Virus record (IMG/VR): IMGVR_UViG_3300009788_000003
Location: 25,324-89,323 of that record
Length of the DNA stretch: 64,000 nucleotides
Origin: a virus
Direction: 5' to 3' (one strand)
Position numbers and translations under genes: made by a program. The first letter of the stretch is position 1; the number at the start of each line of letters is the position of its first letter. The notes below the pieces were generated by a model, which was not told the DNA's origin, did not search any database, and was given only the letters and a program-made list of their open reading frames with translations. Shown here in pieces: positions 18,888 to 58,635 of the stretch.

Positions 18888-18893
18888 ATACTA

Positions 18894-18921
18894 ATAATAG
18901 CATACTAGTATTATTTGTCAA
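18894..18921 (-). promoter_or_regulatory. Sigma70 promoter TTGACA-16-TATTAT
   Basis: TTGACAAATAATACTAGTATGCTATTAT; the 18-bp palindrome lies just upstream at 18928-18945. Confidence 0.75.
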
Positions 18922-20585: not shown

Positions 20586-22523
20586 CTAACCTATATGTAT
20601 TCGTTTTTCGAGAAGACCTAATGCACTTTCCATTGCAACAACCCGTGCAGATAATCCCAACTGCTCACTAATTTGATGGAAAGTTTCAGCATCACCCATA
20701 ACATTTTCAATAAAATCTTTTTCGATGTACCCGATAAAATCAGGGTTCATAACATCAGCCATAGTTTTATAAGGCTTAGCAACTTGCTCAGTTACCCAAG
20801 TTCCTGAATCAAAAAATACGTTAGTCATTGCAGGATTATTACAAATAGCTTCATCCAATTCACGGGCAACTTCCATTGCTTCAGGGTTGGGGTCTCCAAG
20901 AAAATTACTGACTTTATCCCTACGCTCAGGATTAAGAAGAACAACCTTATCAAAACGATCAGCCAAATCAGCAAGTTCAGTAGCAGACAAACCTTCAACC
21001 GGAACCCCAATTTTATAAATGTAATCTTCAAGGCTCAGGGCTTCATTATAATTCTCAACCTTAATCCAATCATTTTCTGTAATGGCAACTTCAAAAAGAC
21101 TACCCAAAAGTTCAACAGGAATGTTGGTTGAAAAATCAAGATCAAAAGGTTTATCTGATAAAAAGACTTCACCTTTTTGACCATCGATCAGAACATACAT
21201 AGTTCCCAAAAGATTAGAAGCATCTGCAAACATAGGTTCAACATCAGGACAACCCACAACACAAGGCTTGTTCATTCCACGAGCAACAACAGCAGCGTGA
21301 CAAGTAGCTGAACCTCTGAAGGTCAAAATACCTTTAGCTTTTTCCATTGCCTTAATATCTTCAGGGGTAGTTTCTTCGGCAACCAGAATTGTATCTTCGT
21401 TGCTGTCCAGAACTTCCTTCACAGAAAAAGCAGCTTTACCTGTGGCGAAGTATCCACCAGAACCAATACCCTTTGCATTAGCTTTCTTTTTAAAATCAGC
21501 AGGGAGAACGGGAACCCGAAGTTTCATAAAAGTTCCTTCATTAATTCCATCACCCAATTCATCAATGATACCTTCTTCAAGAAGATCAAGAGCAATCTTG
21601 ATTTCTGCATATGAAGACCGCGCACCATTACGAGTTTGAAGAATAAACAGTTCACCATCTTCAACAGTGAATTCAATATCCTGCATATCCTTATTTTTCT
21701 TTTCAAGAATTTTACCAATCTCAACCAGTTCATTATAAAGATCGATGTTCCACTTTTTCATTTCAGAAATCGGGGGGGCAGTAATATGACCCGCAACAAC
21801 ATCTTCACCCTGACAATTGGTAAGGAAGTCTCCAAAAACTTTCTTCGCCCCAGAATCAGGATTACGAGTAAACATAACTCCTGAACCAGAGTTGTCATTG
21901 AAGTTTCCAAAAACCATAGATTGAATTATTACAGCAGTTCCCATATCGTTAGGAATCTTGTTCATCTTTCGATAGTGTGTGCAACGCTCATTATCAAAAG
22001 ACTTCCAAACTGCTTCAATTGAATTACGGATAACATCCCGCAATTCAGGAATGTGTTTTTTGATGGTCTTCATCCACTTAACAGGGTCTTCAATTTTTCC
22101 TTCATGACCCATAACAACACCCGCATACATTTCAACAAAACGTCTACGGCAATCTGCTTTCAAGTTTTTCTCTAAACCCTTGTCTTCGTAACCTGCCCCA
22201 ACATTCAAAACAGTATCCATCATTCCCGGCATTGAGATAGGCGCACCAGATCGAATCGATACAAGCTTATGAACCGATTCAGGATAAATGTGGGTATCCA
22301 GTGCTTCCATAACAGCATCAATTACTTGATCAAGTATGAGAGTCTTACCTGTAGGATTTGATTTGCGGTATTGATTACAAATGGCAGTAGGTATAACCAT
22401 GCCAGTAGGAACATTAAGACCATCCATTTTCATTTCAATCAGGTTATGACCTTTGCCACCGTTACTATTAACAGTAGACTTGTTATCAATTTGTCCTGAT
22501 GTGAAAAGGTTAATTAAATTCAC
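20586..22523 (-). CDS. PPDK-like dikinase (ATP-grasp plus phospho-His swivel domain) lacking the pyruvate-binding barrel
   Basis: GGKGHNL, LVSIRSGAPISMPGMMDTVLNVG, QGEDVVAG, DIEFTVEDGELFILQTR and the His motif GSATCHAAVVARG. It is only 645 aa and lacks the GLCRTEHMF-type barrel motifs. Confidence 0.9.
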   Translation of the reverse strand: MNLINLFTSGQIDNKSTVNSNGGKGHNLIEMKMDGLNVPTGMVIPTAICNQYRKSNPTGKTLILDQVIDAVMEALDTHIYPESVHKLVSIRSGAPISMPGMMDTVLNVGAGYEDKGLEKNLKADCRRRFVEMYAGVVMGHEGKIEDPVKWMKTIKKHIPELRDVIRNSIEAVWKSFDNERCTHYRKMNKIPNDMGTAVIIQSMVFGNFNDNSGSGVMFTRNPDSGAKKVFGDFLTNCQGEDVVAGHITAPPISEMKKWNIDLYNELVEIGKILEKKNKDMQDIEFTVEDGELFILQTRNGARSSYAEIKIALDLLEEGIIDELGDGINEGTFMKLRVPVLPADFKKKANAKGIGSGGYFATGKAAFSVKEVLDSNEDTILVAEETTPEDIKAMEKAKGILTFRGSATCHAAVVARGMNKPCVVGCPDVEPMFADASNLLGTMYVLIDGQKGEVFLSDKPFDLDFSTNIPVELLGSLFEVAITENDWIKVENYNEALSLEDYIYKIGVPVEGLSATELADLADRFDKVVLLNPERRDKVSNFLGDPNPEAMEVARELDEAICNNPAMTNVFFDSGTWVTEQVAKPYKTMADVMNPDFIGYIEKDFIENVMGDAETFHQISEQLGLSARVVAMESALGLLEKRIHIG

Positions 22524-29537: not shown

Positions 29538-29570
29538 TTTCTGTCTCGTGTTGTTTGTTTCTATACCTTA

Positions 29571-29623
29571 ATTATAGCACTCTACTATTATTTGTCAGGA
29601 TTATCGGTGTGACTTAGTTCACA
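29571..29623 (-). promoter_or_regulatory. Promoter CTGACA-16-TATAAT with an upstream CRP-consensus site
   Basis: TGTGA-CTTAGT-TCACA at 29608-29623. Confidence 0.65.
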
Positions 29624-35040: not shown

Positions 35041-35326
35041 ATCGTGTCCTATGCTCTGAGTGCAACTTTCGCACTCTTGGTAATTCCAAAATTCTTCCCG
35101 CACTTGCGAAGTGCCTTCTTCGCTTTATTAGTGGGGTAGTCGATGACCGTGTATCGGGAATCAAGTCTGACCTTTCTGATTCGCATTCCTGAAGAGTCAG
35201 GATAGATGACCCCAATAAATTTATGACCGACACTGACCACTAAGCCAGTTCGATAACCTTCATCTTCATGAAGTCTTATAACTGAGTCTTTCATATTCGT
35301 GTCTCGTATTTGTTTGCTGAATCATC

Positions 35327-35355
35327 ATTATACCACATCTAAATATATTTGTCAG
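35327..35355 (-). promoter_or_regulatory. Leftward promoter CTGACA-17-TATAAT (divergent pair)
   Basis: Extended -10 TGgTATAAT and a CAAA leader before the ORF at 35049-35294. Confidence 0.75.
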
Positions 35356-35441
35356 TTTTATTTTTTCGGGATTTCTCTGCAAACACCCAATCAGCCTGTC
35401 TATCAGCCCTAAAAATAATTGAAATTAATTTCATAAATCGC

Positions 35442-35469
35442 TTGACAAATAATACGTGTGTGCTATTAT
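35442..35469 (+). promoter_or_regulatory. Rightward promoter TTGACA-16-TATTAT driving the structured RNA
   Basis: TTGACAAATAATACGTGTGTGCTATTAT with an AT-rich UP element upstream. Confidence 0.8.
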
Positions 35470-35475
35470 TAAGGT

Positions 35476-36337
35476 GTAAGTTAAGTAATGTGAGATTGAA
35501 ACGGGGAAGGTCAGAATCCTCATTCGCAAGAATCATCGACTGACCGGACTCACCCCCTGATAGGCAGGTGGGTACATTGAACAGGAAGTTTAGTGGTCTC
35601 ACACTACTTAATTTACCACGGAAGAACGAATCGCTCATAAGCCAATAGGAACGGACAAGGGTAACGGGAGTAACCCAGATTAATATTCCCACCAAATTTG
35701 TTTTAATGTACGAGAAGGGTTAGCAGGGTTCGATTCCCTGCCAGTGTCACGAAGCTTCACCAGACCGGGTTTACCGGGGAAGGGCATTGAGAGAGTATTT
35801 TGGTACGGCTCCTTCTATTTTTTTTGAAAGTTCTTAGGTACTGCTAGTACATCCCGTTTCGATCACGGGTGAGACCTTAAGACTCTCAGTTAATCGGCAA
35901 CAGTCGAAGACGTTTGACACGAAGGTTGGAATCCTTCTGCTGAGAACTTTCAAAAAAATTTATGTCTTTGATGAACGGTTTTTGTCCTTGACTACTTTGG
36001 GGGGTTGAATATTGCCCTTGGAGCATGATACCTGAACGGATACGTTCTTGGGAATAGTTCCCGGCAATGCTAGACCAATAGTGGTAGGTTCGAACCCGAA
36101 GACCGTTCTTCAAAGACTTAAAGCGGAGCTAGGGCATCAGGAATGGCTTAAGACTGAACTGATGTACGTGACTGTTCTGGGTTGACAGGTGCATTCTACC
36201 GAAATTGAATGACCGCAAACGGGATTGCAGGTTATCGTATAACCACTTTTCTAGACCCCTCGATTTAGAGCTTGCTTCAATCCGATGATGCACATCGAAC
36301 AATACGTGCTAGGTGAAATGAGGCAAGTTCTTTTTTT
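35476..36337 (+). ncRNA. Candidate large structured non-coding RNA (or RNA array) with tRNA-like T-arms
   Basis: No convincing sense-strand ORF; consecutive closing helices (35476-35497/35595-35616, 35819-35837/35940-35958, 35964-35984/36097-36117, 36268-36279/36319-36330 plus U-run); T-loop hairpins at 35723-35741, 35853-35869 and 35921-35937. Confidence 0.7.
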
Positions 36338-36354
36338 ACACTAGGAGGTAATAC

Positions 36355-36543
36355 ATGAACGTGGAGATATCTGAATTCGGGGAAACCCGCGAAGTTGAGA
36401 ACATCATTGAAATAAAGGTGACACCAACATTCTACGGGAATGGGGAATACAATTACACGCACGTTGCTTTGATTCACGATAAAAGTTTAAAGCACGAACC
36501 TGTCCTACTTAGGAACAGCGAAGATTACGTGTCAATCCGATGA
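36355..36543 (+). CDS. Hypothetical protein
   Basis: Strong AGGAGG RBS; ATGA-coupled to the next gene. Confidence 0.65.
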   Translation: MNVEISEFGETREVENIIEIKVTPTFYGNGEYNYTHVALIHDKSLKHEPVLLRNSEDYVSIR

Positions 36544-36830
36544 GCAAATTATTTGACCTTATCGAAGTAGCGAGAGCGTTGAAACCTGCTGAATGGGAAC
36601 CCTGCAATAATTGCGGGTGGTGTTGCCTTACCGAAGTTTGCCCTACCGGAATTGAATTTGGTGGCACGGCAAGCATACCCTGTAAATTTCTGGAATCAGA
36701 AGGTGATAAGCATTATTGCGGATTAGCGAAATTGAATATCCCGGTAATGAATGAACACCTGTCCATAGGTACAGGCTGTGATGCTCGTACCCAACAGGAA
36801 CAACTTGCAAGTCTGGGATTCACGATATGA
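36540..36830 (+). CDS. YkgJ-like Cys-cluster (Fe-S or Zn) protein
   Basis: CNNCGWCC...CP...CKFL...YCGL...GC. Confidence 0.7.
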   Translation: MSKLFDLIEVARALKPAEWEPCNNCGWCCLTEVCPTGIEFGGTASIPCKFLESEGDKHYCGLAKLNIPVMNEHLSIGTGCDARTQQEQLASLGFTI

Positions 36831-37054
36831 AGACCTACCGTATTCAAGATTTCTTCACGGGTAGACCGATACCCACCGAACAATATTTTATGGATGTCCA
36901 CCTGTTCGACACTCCCAAAACTATTGCCGCTGCAATCAACAATCTTCCCGGCCCGTGTATCAAGGTATCGGTTCGCCACGATGTAGGCAGAAAAGGCAGA
37001 CAGGAAGCGCGATTAGCAGGAATAAAATGTGGTGTTGAAATCGTTTTCACATAA
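36827..37054 (+). CDS. Hypothetical protein
   Basis: ATGA-coupled last gene of the plus-strand unit. Confidence 0.55.
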   Translation: MKTYRIQDFFTGRPIPTEQYFMDVHLFDTPKTIAAAINNLPGPCIKVSVRHDVGRKGRQEARLAGIKCGVEIVFT

Positions 37055-37874
37055 TGTTCTTTTTGCGCGAAAATTTTTCACGGAAATAAGCTCTATACCG
37101 TCCCACCAACGCTTTACACTCCCCTAGTTCACGCCTCAATCTGCGGATTTCTTTCACATCCACCTTAGCTTGCTGCTTCGCCCTGATTAACACACTTAAA
37201 TATGGGTCTGTCATAGACCGGATTATAACATCCGTTTTTTTGTGCGCGTAGGAAATCTGGCTATTATCTCATGTGATACTAAGATCAAACCAGACTAAGC
37301 CGAAAACGAGACCTGAAATATATATCAGAAAATTGAAATATATATAAGCCTCAAAAAACCTTAAAAATATCCAGAAAAACTATCCACAGGTGCTTTACCC
37401 GATTGATATTAATATCACCGACTAACTGAAAAAAAGTATATGGTATCCGAGACCGTTTAGGGACAAAAGAAAGAAAAAAGATTTGAAAATAATTTTCGAT
37501 TCACTTAAATAATATTTTTTATATTTTAATAATAAAAATTATGGGTTCCTGTGGGGGGGTCTACAGGGGGGGTCTCTTATACGCCTAATATCTCGTACAA
37601 TATACACAGCAGCACACCCCGCGCCCTTGACACCGCAGATTGTATGTGTGAAGTCAGCCCCCGGCCCACCCACGGAAGTATATCATATCCTTTATTATTT
37701 GTCAAGGCTATGTGTGTGACTTAGTTACTATATTTATTTGTCAAGATATGTTATCATACCGGGGCGGGTCAGGGGCTATCCCTGCCCTTATATTATTTGA
37801 TACTAAGTGCAATTAAGTGTTGACAAATAATAACTATTATGTTATCCTTACCGGGTGGGTCAGAGGGTACGCCC
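37055..37874. other. Non-coding region; candidate genome terminus / packaging site
   Basis: About 820 bp without ORFs next to terL. It holds an A-tract-rich block, two GGGGGGGTCT repeats, an imperfect direct repeat of about 35 bp, and promoters on both strands. Confidence 0.5.
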
Positions 37875-39722
37875 CTAGTCCCATACTTGCTTCTCTGGTT
37901 CATCCACCGCGAAGTAGTTGGTAATCATGGGGCTTGGTTGTACCCCGAAGCTTGCCCATGTCCACCGTTGCATAGTAAGTCCATACACTACCCCCGCGAA
38001 TGCATCAGCTAAGTCTTTAGTATTGAATGCGTTGTGATCGACCTTACCCTTGGATGTACGTTCTAGGTGTACTATCTCATTGCGTACATGGGCATCTTCA
38101 GGTGCAGTGATACGCTCTTGATTCAGCGCGTTCTTAAGGATGTCATACGGTAACGGGGTTCTATCCATTGACTGTAAGCCCGTCATGTATCCCTTACCCC
38201 GCAATATCTGTAGGCTATCCACTGACTGATATGAATCGAATGTAACCCAACGTATCAGTACACCCAACTCAGTCAGCTTATATAAGATCGTGCGTATCTT
38301 GGCAAAGTTAATCTCATCATTGATAGGTGGTGTCACACGCAGGAACCCATCAATCATTATGTGGGGCATCATACCCCCGTGTGAGTCTTCTTCCCCTTCA
38401 ACGTGTATGAACTTGTCCACGTAACCTAAGCACACACCCGCCGCATCAGCAGTAAGACCTAGATCGATGTGTACAAAGCGTGGTCTGTGAGGCTGCTTAA
38501 TAGCATCCTTGACTAACCCCACCTGAGTAACAACGAAATCACAATCAGGTCTGGTGAATATACTTTTGATCTTAGTATCAAAGTTCTTGGATAGTATCTC
38601 CACGTTGGGGAAGTATGGGGCTTTAGCTACCGTGCTTACCCCGGCTATCTCCCGCAGGGCATTGTATATATCGTTTACAAATCGCTTACGGTATTCAGCA
38701 GGTATACGCTTAACCTGAGCAGGGTAATCCTTCTTAGTCTGCTTAACATCATGCGGGGCTATGATATACGGCTTACGAGTATCACTACCTATGAAGATGT
38801 GAAACCATTTGCCTGTGAATAGCTCAGGGGGCTTGATATCCCATATCACTTCATCCCGGTAATAGATACCATCATCACGTTTTGCTTCTGCTGCCTTCCT
38901 GTCTGTGAACTGACCGGGATAATTCTTCGATGAGCCTAAGCATAGTATCCCCGGCACTACCCCTTGCCGCATGAACCTGCTTTCCCGGCGTGATGCTATC
39001 GAGTTGTATAGCTCTATTGCTTGGTTGAACTGCCCCCCATCTACCAATTTGCGGGAAGAGTCAACTACCTCCATGAAATTAATCTCATCGATGAAGCCAC
39101 TATAAACATTTTGTCCTATGGTTGCACTGGTCTCGCCACTCGTAGGAAACACACTTATGTTTTTAGGGAAGACTAACCTGCTATCTAAATCCTTACGGTA
39201 AGGAAAGACCGTGTTGAAATATTCACTGCCTTCAATCATGTTTCGAAAACGTGCATAATCCACATCACGAGCCACACGAGCATTAATTGACTGGAAGACA
39301 AAGAAAATTTCAGAAGCGCGGTCTTGATTCAGCAGCAGATGGGGTGAGCGAAAGCAGGATAATAAATAAAGCTGATAAGCTGTTGTTTACAATGCTCTGG
39401 TAGTCTTAGCAGTACCTATTCCTCCTGTTAGGCAACACTCATAAAACCTTTGCCCCAATCTGTCACCATCGGGATTATTTATCTCTATAATACTCTCCAT
39501 TACTGAAGGCCAAACTTCGGCCCCCGTCCCTAAATACTCCTTGGCAAAAATGAACTCTTCTACACTAACCGGATAACGCCCCAACAGCAGAAGTGAAGGT
39601 AGCCGAACAATATTCTCTCCTTCAAGATACCATTCGATTGATTGCCTGATGTCCTTACTGAATGGGTCACTTTTACCCGCCAAGCTTCGATGCATATTGG
39701 TAAGCTTACTTGGCTTAAGCAT
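37875..39722 (-). CDS. terL: Terminase large subunit, interrupted by one in-frame TAA at 39387-39389
   Basis: Walker A TGGIGTAKTT, Walker B FIDEINF, nuclease motifs HIDLG, FDSYQS and KDLADA. The frame is continuous across the stop: RAL*TTAYQLYLLSC. Confidence 0.9.
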
Positions 39723-58138: not shown

Positions 58139-58635
58139 TTCATATCCCCTTGCTTTGTTTGCCAAAAAGCCCCAATTAAGGGGCTATGAATTTGGGTCAA
58201 GTTTCTCACCGTGAAAAAGGAACAGTGGTCTATCCTCTAGCATTTCTTCATCTTGCTTGATGTTGGCTATTGCATCCTCAACAATCTGTTGCGCCCATTA
58301 ATGATTAGTTACTTTGTGAATCTGTTATTTACTCCGTTTCCGAAGTCCGTGTAACTAACTGTCAATCTTCTTGGAAAGAGCCGCAGCACCCTTGACAGTA
58401 GACTTTGCGGTTCTGGTTGGCTTACCTAATTCGGGCAGTACCCTCATTACCAACCACCTTCTTAAATTCACACCATGTTTGTTTCTTGTATTCTCCTGTG
58501 TTGACAGGGTTAATCGAATGTTTCTTAACTTACCCCCTAATAATAGCATACGGGTTATATTTGTCAAGCCTTTTTATTGAAAAAATTGACCCCTATTGGC
58601 CCCCCCTATAGGCAAAACTGATTTTAAGGGTTTTA

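What the first reader, a model, noticed from the sequence alone, without database searches (positions are those of the whole stretch)
35442..36337. An 860-nt multi-domain structured RNA with tRNA-like T-arms under a dedicated strong promoter
Seen: in a gene-dense genome this stretch has no credible sense ORF. It begins at the predicted TSS (about 35476) with a helix of about 20 bp and ends in a helix plus U-run. It divides into about six consecutive domains of 60-175 nt, most closed by a long helix containing G-U pairs (35476/35616, 35644/35819, 35819/35958, 35964/36117, about 36120/36266, 36268/36330). Inside are stacked hairpins: T-arm mimics CAGGG-TTCGATT-CCCTG, CCCGT-TTCGATC-ACGGG and GAAGG-TTGGAAT-CCTTC, plus GGTTCGAACC and a GCAA tetraloop. 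The segment 35884-35945 folds like a D-armless tRNA. I could not build a canonical cloverleaf. Known: phages carry large ncRNAs (GOLLD, ROOL) and Y RNAs with tRNA-like domains, and long closing helices are RNase III substrates. Inference: one new large ncRNA, or a processed array of tRNA mimics acting as decoys for anticodon nucleases, toxins or other RNA-binding defence proteins. It is probably expressed early and may act with the three downstream ORFs.
Basis: partly seen in the sequence, partly recalled or inferred. Interest (0 to 1): 0.88.

Follow-up and report, generated by a model that had tools for sequence, protein, structure and literature searches.

The report
Phage operon of shuffled structured RNAs
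An uncultured marine-sediment phage carries, where its relatives keep tRNA genes, a promoter-driven string of at least five different folded small RNAs of unknown function, some with tRNA-like hairpins, that are swapped between related phages like cassettes.

Summary
The structured, ORF-free stretch is real. The + strand folds far better than shuffles (z -7.05). It matches no Rfam family and no tRNA or tmRNA. Relatives show compensatory base-pair changes in five of the six modules: D1, D2a, D2b, D3 and D5.

It is not one 860-nt RNA. In 13 related array stretches from uncultured phages the modules change order, drop out, nest inside one another or keep a closing helix around a different interior. 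Canonical tRNA-Tyr, tRNA-Glu and tRNA-Asn genes sit among them. This phage has none.

The best reading is an early, sigma-70-driven polycistronic small-RNA operon of the tRNA-cluster type. Its closest analogue is the phage T4 tRNA transcript with species 1 and 2 RNAs.

Three T-loop hairpins are conserved. One module ends in an invariant ACCA after a covarying 7-bp stem. Function is inferred, not shown; the anticodon-nuclease decoy idea has no direct support.

The scan has noted other unknown RNAs in phage tRNA arrays on other genomes, but not this family. Interest is moderate to high.

The parts
35442..35469 (+). Sigma-70-type promoter (TTGACA, 16-nt spacer, TG-n-TATTAT). By spacing, the predicted start is about 35476.
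   Evidence: 11 of 12 matches, TG present. Conserved in front of the arrays of relatives (P hits at 80-88 %). Three further copies of its first 30-47 bases lie elsewhere in the genome.
35476..35616 (+). Module D1, a four-way junction. It has a 20-bp closing helix ending GUGAGA/UCUCAC, a conserved J1/2 (UUGAAAC), and a hairpin P2 with a conserved internal loop (AAUCCUC/CAUCGA) and a variable tip (GCAA, or UUCG in a relative). Hairpins P3 and P4 follow.
   Evidence: z -6.05. In 8 sequences, 18 of 33 pairs have compensatory changes. Model R1 finds one copy per array, scoring 122-170 bits on + against 14-28 bits on -.
35617..35658 (+). Purine-rich linker or leader of D2a, with little predicted structure.
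35659..35694 (+). Module D2a core. A 7-bp hairpin (35666-35672 with 35684-35690) is followed by an invariant ACCA (35691-35694) and an A/U-rich trailer. The loop ACCC (35673-35676) could pair with the upstream GGGU (35659-35662) to give an H-type pseudoknot.
   Evidence: ACCA is invariant in 11 of 11 array stretches that hold D2a. In the stem, 3 of 7 pairs have compensatory changes and 93 % of cells pair. The pseudoknot stem never varies, so it is untested. z is only -1.05.
35713..35816 (+). Module D2b. It has a closing stem, a T-arm-like hairpin (35724-35740, CAGGG-UUCGAUU-CCCUG), a 7-bp helix CAGUGUC/GGCAUUG with a nested hairpin, and a conserved single-stranded GAGAGAG tract. In relatives its ends match the acceptor stem of the array's tRNA-Tyr.
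   Evidence: In 6 sequences, 11 of 26 pairs have compensatory changes. The T-loop is invariant. Strict T-arm scan. Shared GGAAGUG...ACUUCC-A ends with tRNA-Tyr. z is only -0.73.
35819..35958 (+). Module D3. A 17-19-bp A/U-rich closing helix encloses a small hairpin, T-loop hairpin 1 (35853-35869), a hairpin with a ...AAGACU loop, hairpin hpC (35903-35918, GACG loop) and T-loop hairpin 2 (35921-35937). The third loop base of hairpin 2 varies freely.
   Evidence: z -4.64. In 9 sequences, 11 of 40 pairs are compensatory. For hpC and T-arm 2, 100 % of cells pair and 2 pairs are compensatory.
35959..36122 (+). Module D4, a 164-nt rod-like hairpin cassette. Among the related array stretches it occurs, nearly unchanged (99.4 %), only in L021 and L027. 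One contig has the same closing helix around a shorter, unrelated interior, and most arrays join D3 directly to D5.
   Evidence: z -5.88. Presence and absence. A contig joins 35955 to 36112 in run X5. The variant has a compensatory change in the closing helix.
36125..36258 (+). Module D5, a multi-hairpin RNA. Its 5' part (about 36121-36190) is invariant in all 8 arrays and includes a hairpin with an 18-nt loop carrying CUUAAGACU. The 3' hairpins vary and covary.
   Evidence: the aligned 5' columns are identical in 8 of 8, and 10 of 42 pairs are compensatory, all in the 3' part. A 44-nt piece (36127-36170) lies in other contigs with different flanks. z is only -0.54.
36267..36337 (+). D6, a 13-bp-stem hairpin followed by a U7 run. 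It is a likely leaky terminator or processing hairpin. It replaces the tRNA-Tyr gene that relatives carry at this position.
   Evidence: z -3.63. Relatives have tRNA-Tyr there. It was not called by the simple terminator scan. No homologue was found, so there are no covariation data.
36343..37054 (+). A strong RBS (AGGAGG, 36343-36348) and three small ORFs (36355-36543, 36540-36830, 36827-37054) follow, with no promoter-like site between them and the array. They are probably cotranscribed with the RNAs, but they are not a fixed partner set.
   Evidence: Partial conservation in relatives. Other ORFs follow the array in L035. There are no Pfam hits. The 96-aa ORF matches cysteine-cluster (YcgN) families only weakly.

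Best explanation
The stretch is a polycistronic small-RNA operon of the phage tRNA-cluster type. One strong host-type promoter drives a string of independent, individually folded RNA modules (D1, D2a, D2b, D3, D4, D5), which ends in a hairpin plus U-run and runs on into small ORFs.

Shown:
- The modules are real RNA structures on the + strand.
- Each is a separate evolutionary unit that is shuffled, lost, replaced or nested among related phages.
- Relatives carry ordinary tRNA-Tyr, tRNA-Glu and tRNA-Asn genes in the same arrays.
- Three hairpins keep the T-loop sequence.
- D2a ends in an invariant ACCA after a covarying 7-bp stem.
- The ends of D2b match a tRNA-Tyr acceptor stem.

Inferred:
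- The transcript is cut into separate stable small RNAs by the host enzymes that mature polycistronic tRNA precursors. RNase E would cut at the recurrent A/U-rich AAUUUUG-type junctions, and RNase P and 3' trimming would act at tRNA-like ends. RNase III would cut the 17-20-bp closing helices of D1, D3 and D4.
- The products act in trans on host or phage factors that read the tRNA elbow or the CCA end.

The target itself is unknown.
For: RNA structure and strand.
- z is -7.05 on + and -3.63 on -.
- Compensatory pairs: D1 18 of 33, D2b 11 of 26, D3 11 of 40, D5 10 of 42, D2a stem 3 of 7, hpC 2 of 6.
- A GCAA to UUCG tetraloop swap occurs in a relative.
- The D1 model scores 122-170 bits on + and 14-28 bits on -.

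Independent modules.
- The module maps of 13 related array stretches differ in order and content.
- Module X is inserted between D2a and D2b in L028, and D2a plus X occur without D2b in L018 and L022.
- D4 is absent from most arrays and is replaced by another interior within the same closing helix in L035.
- Contigs from three further metagenome studies show the same joints.

tRNA-cluster context.
- tRNA-Tyr, tRNA-Glu and tRNA-Asn lie in the same orientation inside the arrays of relatives, and an HNH homing endonuclease gene lies beside tRNA-Tyr.
- A/U-rich AAUUUU(G) stands directly before tRNA 5' ends, after the tRNA-Tyr CCA and after the D2a ACCA.
- Passages of PMC2330249 describe the T4 tRNA region as one ~1.75-kb transcript that is the precursor of eight tRNAs and of species I and II RNAs and also holds the segB mRNA.
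- T4 rnaC (139 nt) contains a T-arm hairpin in a non-cloverleaf MFE fold.

tRNA-like features.
- Strict T-arm hairpins occur only here in the genome.
- The T-loops are conserved while their stems covary.
- ACCA is invariant in 11 of 11 D2a copies.
Against: - No transcript, processing site or stable product has been observed. No RNA run was listed for this sequence (no evidence either way).
- D2a, D2b and D5 do not fold better than shuffles (z -1.05, -0.73, -0.54), so their support rests on 6-8 related sequences.
- D4 and D6 have almost no comparative data.
- The closing stems of D2b and D5 are short, so RNase III cannot explain every boundary.
- The RNase E consensus is recalled, not tested. 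In the window itself the strict AATTTT junction word occurs 0 times; the junctions there are looser A/U runs.
- The T-arm-like hairpin of D2b sits in the D-arm position, which is not tRNA topology.
- The phage encodes no Ro60, RtcB, CCA-adding enzyme or reverse transcriptase that could point to a pathway.
- The family was found only in a narrow clade of uncultured phages.
Confidence: 0.55

Rival explanations
1. One large multi-domain ncRNA works as a single molecule, like GOLLD or ROOL, and the domains are peripheral elements of one fold.
For: There is one promoter and one terminal hairpin plus U-run, with no internal promoter or terminator called. The whole stretch folds with z -7.05. GOLLD and ROOL are phage-associated and lie near tRNAs (recalled; I saw only the abstract of the preprint 10.1101/2024.12.08.627333, in the listing).
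Against: Module order differs between relatives: D1 comes before D2 here and after D2 in L024, L026, L028 and L029. Single modules are missing or replaced, and tRNA genes sit between modules. The supported helices are all local. No Rfam family reaches its threshold, and at E up to 10 there are only three sub-threshold chance-level matches.
Confidence: 0.08
2. The array is a cis-acting structured leader. Its folded modules only stabilise, insulate or time the processing and translation of the cotranscribed tRNAs and small early ORFs, and have no function of their own in trans.
For: The RBS and first ORF start 6-18 nt after the U-run, with no promoter-like site between. In L035 the ORF follows tRNA-Tyr directly. 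Long closing helices would insulate the folding of neighbours.
Against: The downstream ORFs differ between relatives while the modules are kept. The 5' 70 nt of D5 are identical in 8 of 8 arrays whose other parts differ by 10-25 %. The T-loops and ACCA are conserved at the sequence level. Such constraints are more than a passive leader needs.
Confidence: 0.15
3. The modules are tRNA decoys that absorb anticodon nucleases or other tRNA-cleaving defence toxins.
For: Relatives carry tRNA-Tyr, tRNA-Asn and tRNA-Glu in the arrays. From recall, not from a paper read here, these are species that known anticodon nucleases attack and that phages are thought to replace. T-loop hairpins and an ACCA end are conserved. 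The location suggests an early accessory region.
Against: No module is a cloverleaf by ARAGORN or the Rfam tRNA model. Relaxed ARAGORN models are poor. The arm of D3 in the anticodon position ends in a 4-nt GACG loop, and I saw no conserved 7-nt anticodon-type loop in the module alignments. The third T-loop base of D3 hairpin 2 varies freely, so a tRNA-type elbow is unlikely there.
Confidence: 0.07
4. The array is selfish or decaying DNA: hairpin cassettes with inverted-repeat ends (MITE-like) and remnants of tRNA genes that homing endonucleases and recombination spread through the tRNA cluster, of no use to the phage.
For: D4 is an insertion bounded by a 20-bp inverted repeat and is 99.4 % identical in the L021/L027 lineage. 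An HNH homing endonuclease gene lies in the array of that relative. The ends and T-arm of D2b look tRNA-Tyr-derived.
Against: G-U pairs and compensatory changes maintain RNA helices on one strand. Loops and junctions are conserved at the sequence level. Patterns from D5 and D1 found no copy in 185,579 species genomes. The D4 closing helix itself shows a compensatory change.
Confidence: 0.1

Closest known systems
Phage T4 tRNA gene cluster with species 1 and species 2 stable RNAs (rnaC 139 nt, rnaD 119 nt)
   Same: Non-tRNA structured RNAs of 120-165 nt lie in one orientation with tRNA genes and a homing endonuclease gene. In T4 they are made as part of one precursor transcript (PMC2330249, passages; annotation). 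rnaC holds a T-arm hairpin in a non-cloverleaf MFE fold. Function is unknown.
   Different: No homology beyond the 11-16-nt T-loop words. The D1 model finds nothing in the T4 region (best 9.2 bits, E 0.16). Here there are six or more different modules, long closing helices, cassette-like shuffling, and no canonical tRNA at all in this phage.
GOLLD and ROOL large phage-associated RNAs (Rfam)
   Same: Ornate non-coding RNAs of phages and prophages, often near tRNA genes, with unknown function (recalled; only the preprint abstract was seen).
   Different: No Rfam family reaches its threshold, and the only matches at E up to 10 are three other families at chance level. The present locus is a set of separable modules, not one conserved fold.
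Bacterial Y RNAs (YrlA) with Ro60/Rsr
   Same: A long stem formed by the 5' and 3' ends plus a tRNA-like part with a T-arm (PMC4201824, abstract only). D3 has that general outline.
   Different: No Rfam match. The phage has no TROVE/Ro60 gene and no RtcB. The host is unknown.
Pseudoknotted, CCA-ending tRNA-like structures of plant RNA viruses
   Same: D2a could stack a 4-bp and a 7-bp helix into an acceptor-like arm that ends in ACCA.
   Different: D2a is internal to a DNA-phage transcript and would need 3' processing. The pseudoknot stem never varies and so is untested. D2a has no T-arm or anticodon-arm analogue. Aminoacylation cannot be tested here.
Candidate structured RNAs of viruses (10,006 csRNAs from IMG/VR and RNA viruses, PMC10690425)
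   Same: That screen used IMG/VR and reports tRNA-like candidates of up to 151 nt (passages). Single modules of this array could be among them.
   Different: The text describes no array of this kind.

Membership tests
tRNA (Rfam RF00005, ARAGORN cloverleaf) | A cloverleaf with a 7-bp acceptor stem, D-arm, anticodon arm with a 7-nt loop, and T-arm, recognised by ARAGORN or the Rfam model | tested here: not met
   ARAGORN finds 0 genes in the window and in the whole genome. There is no RF00005 match at E up to 10 in 35300-36450. Relaxed intron-mode models have mismatched stems. The 96-nt 'tRNA-Val' that ARAGORN calls over D2 in L011 and L012 is contradicted by covariation of its 3' strand with a downstream partner.
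tRNA-like element (partial mimic) | A conserved T-loop hairpin (5-bp stem, UUNRANN loop) | tested here: met
   Hairpins lie at 35724-35740, 35853-35869 and 35921-35937. The loops are conserved and the stems covary or are invariant.
tRNA-like element (partial mimic) | An acceptor-type helix followed by NCCA | tested here: met
   In D2a a 7-bp stem is followed by ACCA, invariant in 11 of 11 copies, with 3 of 7 pairs compensatory. Whether ACCA becomes a 3' end is not testable here.
tmRNA | A tRNA-like domain plus a tag reading frame, recognised by ARAGORN or Rfam | tested here: not met
GOLLD / ROOL / other catalogued large RNAs | A match to the Rfam covariance model | tested here: not met
   0 matches at gathering score in 64 kb. 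Only three sub-threshold chance-level matches at E up to 10.
Y RNA (YrlA) | An Rfam match and a Ro60 (TROVE) partner gene | tested here: not met
   No Rfam match. No TROVE domain in the phage, while the control genomes gave hits. The host genome is unknown.
Retron ncRNA | An adjacent reverse transcriptase | tested here: not met
   No RVT_1 in the 89-kb genome.
Phage tRNA-cluster stable RNAs (T4 species 1 and 2 type) | Encoded within, and in the same orientation as, a phage tRNA gene array under a shared promoter | tested here: met
   Met through relatives: tRNA-Tyr, tRNA-Glu and tRNA-Asn lie among the same modules behind the same promoter. This phage itself has no tRNA.
Phage tRNA-cluster stable RNAs (T4 species 1 and 2 type) | Sequence or structure homology to T4 rnaC or rnaD | tested here: not met
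   Only T-loop words are shared. R1 finds nothing.
Phage tRNA-cluster stable RNAs (T4 species 1 and 2 type) | Accumulates as a stable processed RNA | not testable with these tools
   No RNA run was listed.
CsrB/RsmY-type protein sponge | Many GGA motifs in loops | tested here: not met
   There are 15 GGA in the region, against 14.5 +/- 3.3 in shuffles and a mean of 10.9 in genome windows.

The most novel reading that the evidence does not exclude
The array is an exchangeable toolkit of RNA-only counter-defence or takeover cassettes. Each module would be matured by the host's own tRNA-processing enzymes into a stable RNA that imitates one surface of tRNA (elbow or T-loop, or the acceptor-CCA end) and so blocks or misdirects a different tRNA-reading host factor, such as toxins that modify the CCA end or enzymes that dock on the elbow. 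Phages would swap such RNA cassettes as they swap anti-defence protein genes, and canonical phage tRNAs would be just one kind of cassette in the same system.
Probability: 0.15. Interest if true: 0.85.

Novelty: new variant of a known kind. Interest (0 to 1): 0.6.

Why it matters
Stable non-tRNA RNAs in phage tRNA clusters have been known since the T4 species 1 and 2 RNAs and are still unexplained.

This locus offers an unusually rich and tractable case:
- at least six distinct covarying RNA folds behind one promoter;
- natural 'deletion', 'swap' and 'insertion' variants in related phages;
- defined tRNA-like features (T-loops, an ACCA-ending minihelix, a tRNA-Tyr-type acceptor stem) that suggest concrete partners to test.

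If the modules act on tRNA-binding host factors, phage tRNA clusters would be general RNA-effector loci rather than codon-supply loci. If they are only processing scaffolds, that would still explain a recurrent class of 'empty' phage DNA.

The limits are plain. The phage is uncultured, the family is narrow, and nothing about expression or function is shown.

Tried and rejected
Searches that found no relative or no family.
- blastn of 35300-36450 against 50,697 GenBank phage records gave no match.
- The three cultured Vibrio phages with the nearest DNA polymerase (47-52 % aa), KarBoss, SIO-2 and VH2_2019, hold neither D1 nor any tRNA.
- Exact-pattern scans of IMG/VR for D3, D2b, D5, D4 and D1 returned only 1-5 stretches, all from the same small clade.
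- Patterns from the D5 loop and from D1 found nothing in the genome collection. This says nothing about diverged copies.

Other checks.
- More distant relatives found through the 466-aa gene (L014, L015, 53-54 % aa) have genes, not an array, at that position.
- CsrA-sponge idea: GGA is not enriched.
- Antisense idea: the D5 loop has no complementary site of 10 nt or more elsewhere in the phage genome.
- Retron, Ro60/Y RNA, RtcB and a phage CCA-adding enzyme are all absent from the phage.
- The neighbouring 466-aa gene looks like a large terminase by language-model features only and is not linked to the RNAs.
- Flanking ORFs have no Pfam or NCBIfam assignment beyond a weak cysteine-cluster match.
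- Expression: no RNA holder was listed. The four runs laid were DNA contigs, so they show mosaic joints but nothing about transcripts.
- The small 5' hairpin of D3 seems to covary (UAC/GUA against ACA/UGU), but the alignment shifts register, so I leave it as tentative.
- The supplements of PMC10690425, which may list single modules as candidate RNAs, could not be opened.
- I built only one of three possible covariance models and did not run complex prediction, structure prediction or the large protein searches. None bears on an RNA locus.
Full report
Where it lies. The window is bases 25324-89323 of an 89,323-bp IMG/VR phage record with direct terminal repeats. Nearly all genes run on the - strand. 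The finding sits in a small + strand island between divergent promoters. The phage's DNA polymerase is closest, at 47-52 % amino-acid identity, to Vibrio siphophages of the KarBoss, SIO-2 and VHS1 kind. DNA runs that hold the stretch are labelled subsurface, marine-sediment and cold-seep metagenomes. The 466-aa gene to the right looks like a large terminase by language-model features only.

Noticed in passing
L008:4377-4856 (- strand of the locus; same contig as L021): A 159-aa HNH homing endonuclease (HNH_3, E 1.3e-10, plus a weak I-TevI DNA-binding match) lies directly beside tRNA-Tyr in a relative's array. This parallels segB in the T4 tRNA cluster and is a likely driver of the mosaicism.
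   Followed up: partly
window 37055-37875: An 820-nt A/T-rich non-coding gap lies between the small ORFs and the 466-aa gene. It holds two GGGGGGGTCT repeats and several TTGACA-type promoter look-alikes. Another first-stage note calls it a candidate packaging start. Several relatives' contigs end in or near it.
   Followed up: no
window 37875-39275 (-): The 466-aa protein has no Pfam, PHROG or NCBIfam match. By protein-language-model features it resembles clusters of large terminase subunits.
   Followed up: partly
window 36540-36830 (+): A 96-aa ORF carries a CxxCGxCC-type cysteine cluster. Its only matches are weak ones to YcgN-family cysteine-cluster proteins (E 0.002, far below the cut-off). 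It is conserved at 77-81 % DNA identity in L006 and L023.
   Followed up: partly
genome G000:C1 83844-83890, 44215-44244, 54885-54920 (- strand); window 58521-58567, 18892-18921, 29562-29597: Three further copies of the first 30-47 bases of the promoter region occur elsewhere in the genome. This suggests a shared early-promoter consensus.
   Followed up: no
window 36127-36170, seen in runs X1 and X3: A 44-nt piece of the invariant D5 hairpin occurs in short metagenome contigs with quite different flanks, so a more distant D5-like module exists in other phages.
   Followed up: no
L035 (reverse complement) 277-380; also after D5 in L025 and L028: Module Y is a further ~100-nt unit. Its 13-16-bp closing helix is followed by G-CCA and AAUUUUG, just before tRNA-Tyr. 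It is a second non-tRNA module with an NCCA-type end.
   Followed up: partly
window 20586-22523 (-): A 645-aa protein matches PHROG 18609 ('kinase', E 5.8e-132). Another first-stage note reads it as PPDK-like.
   Followed up: no
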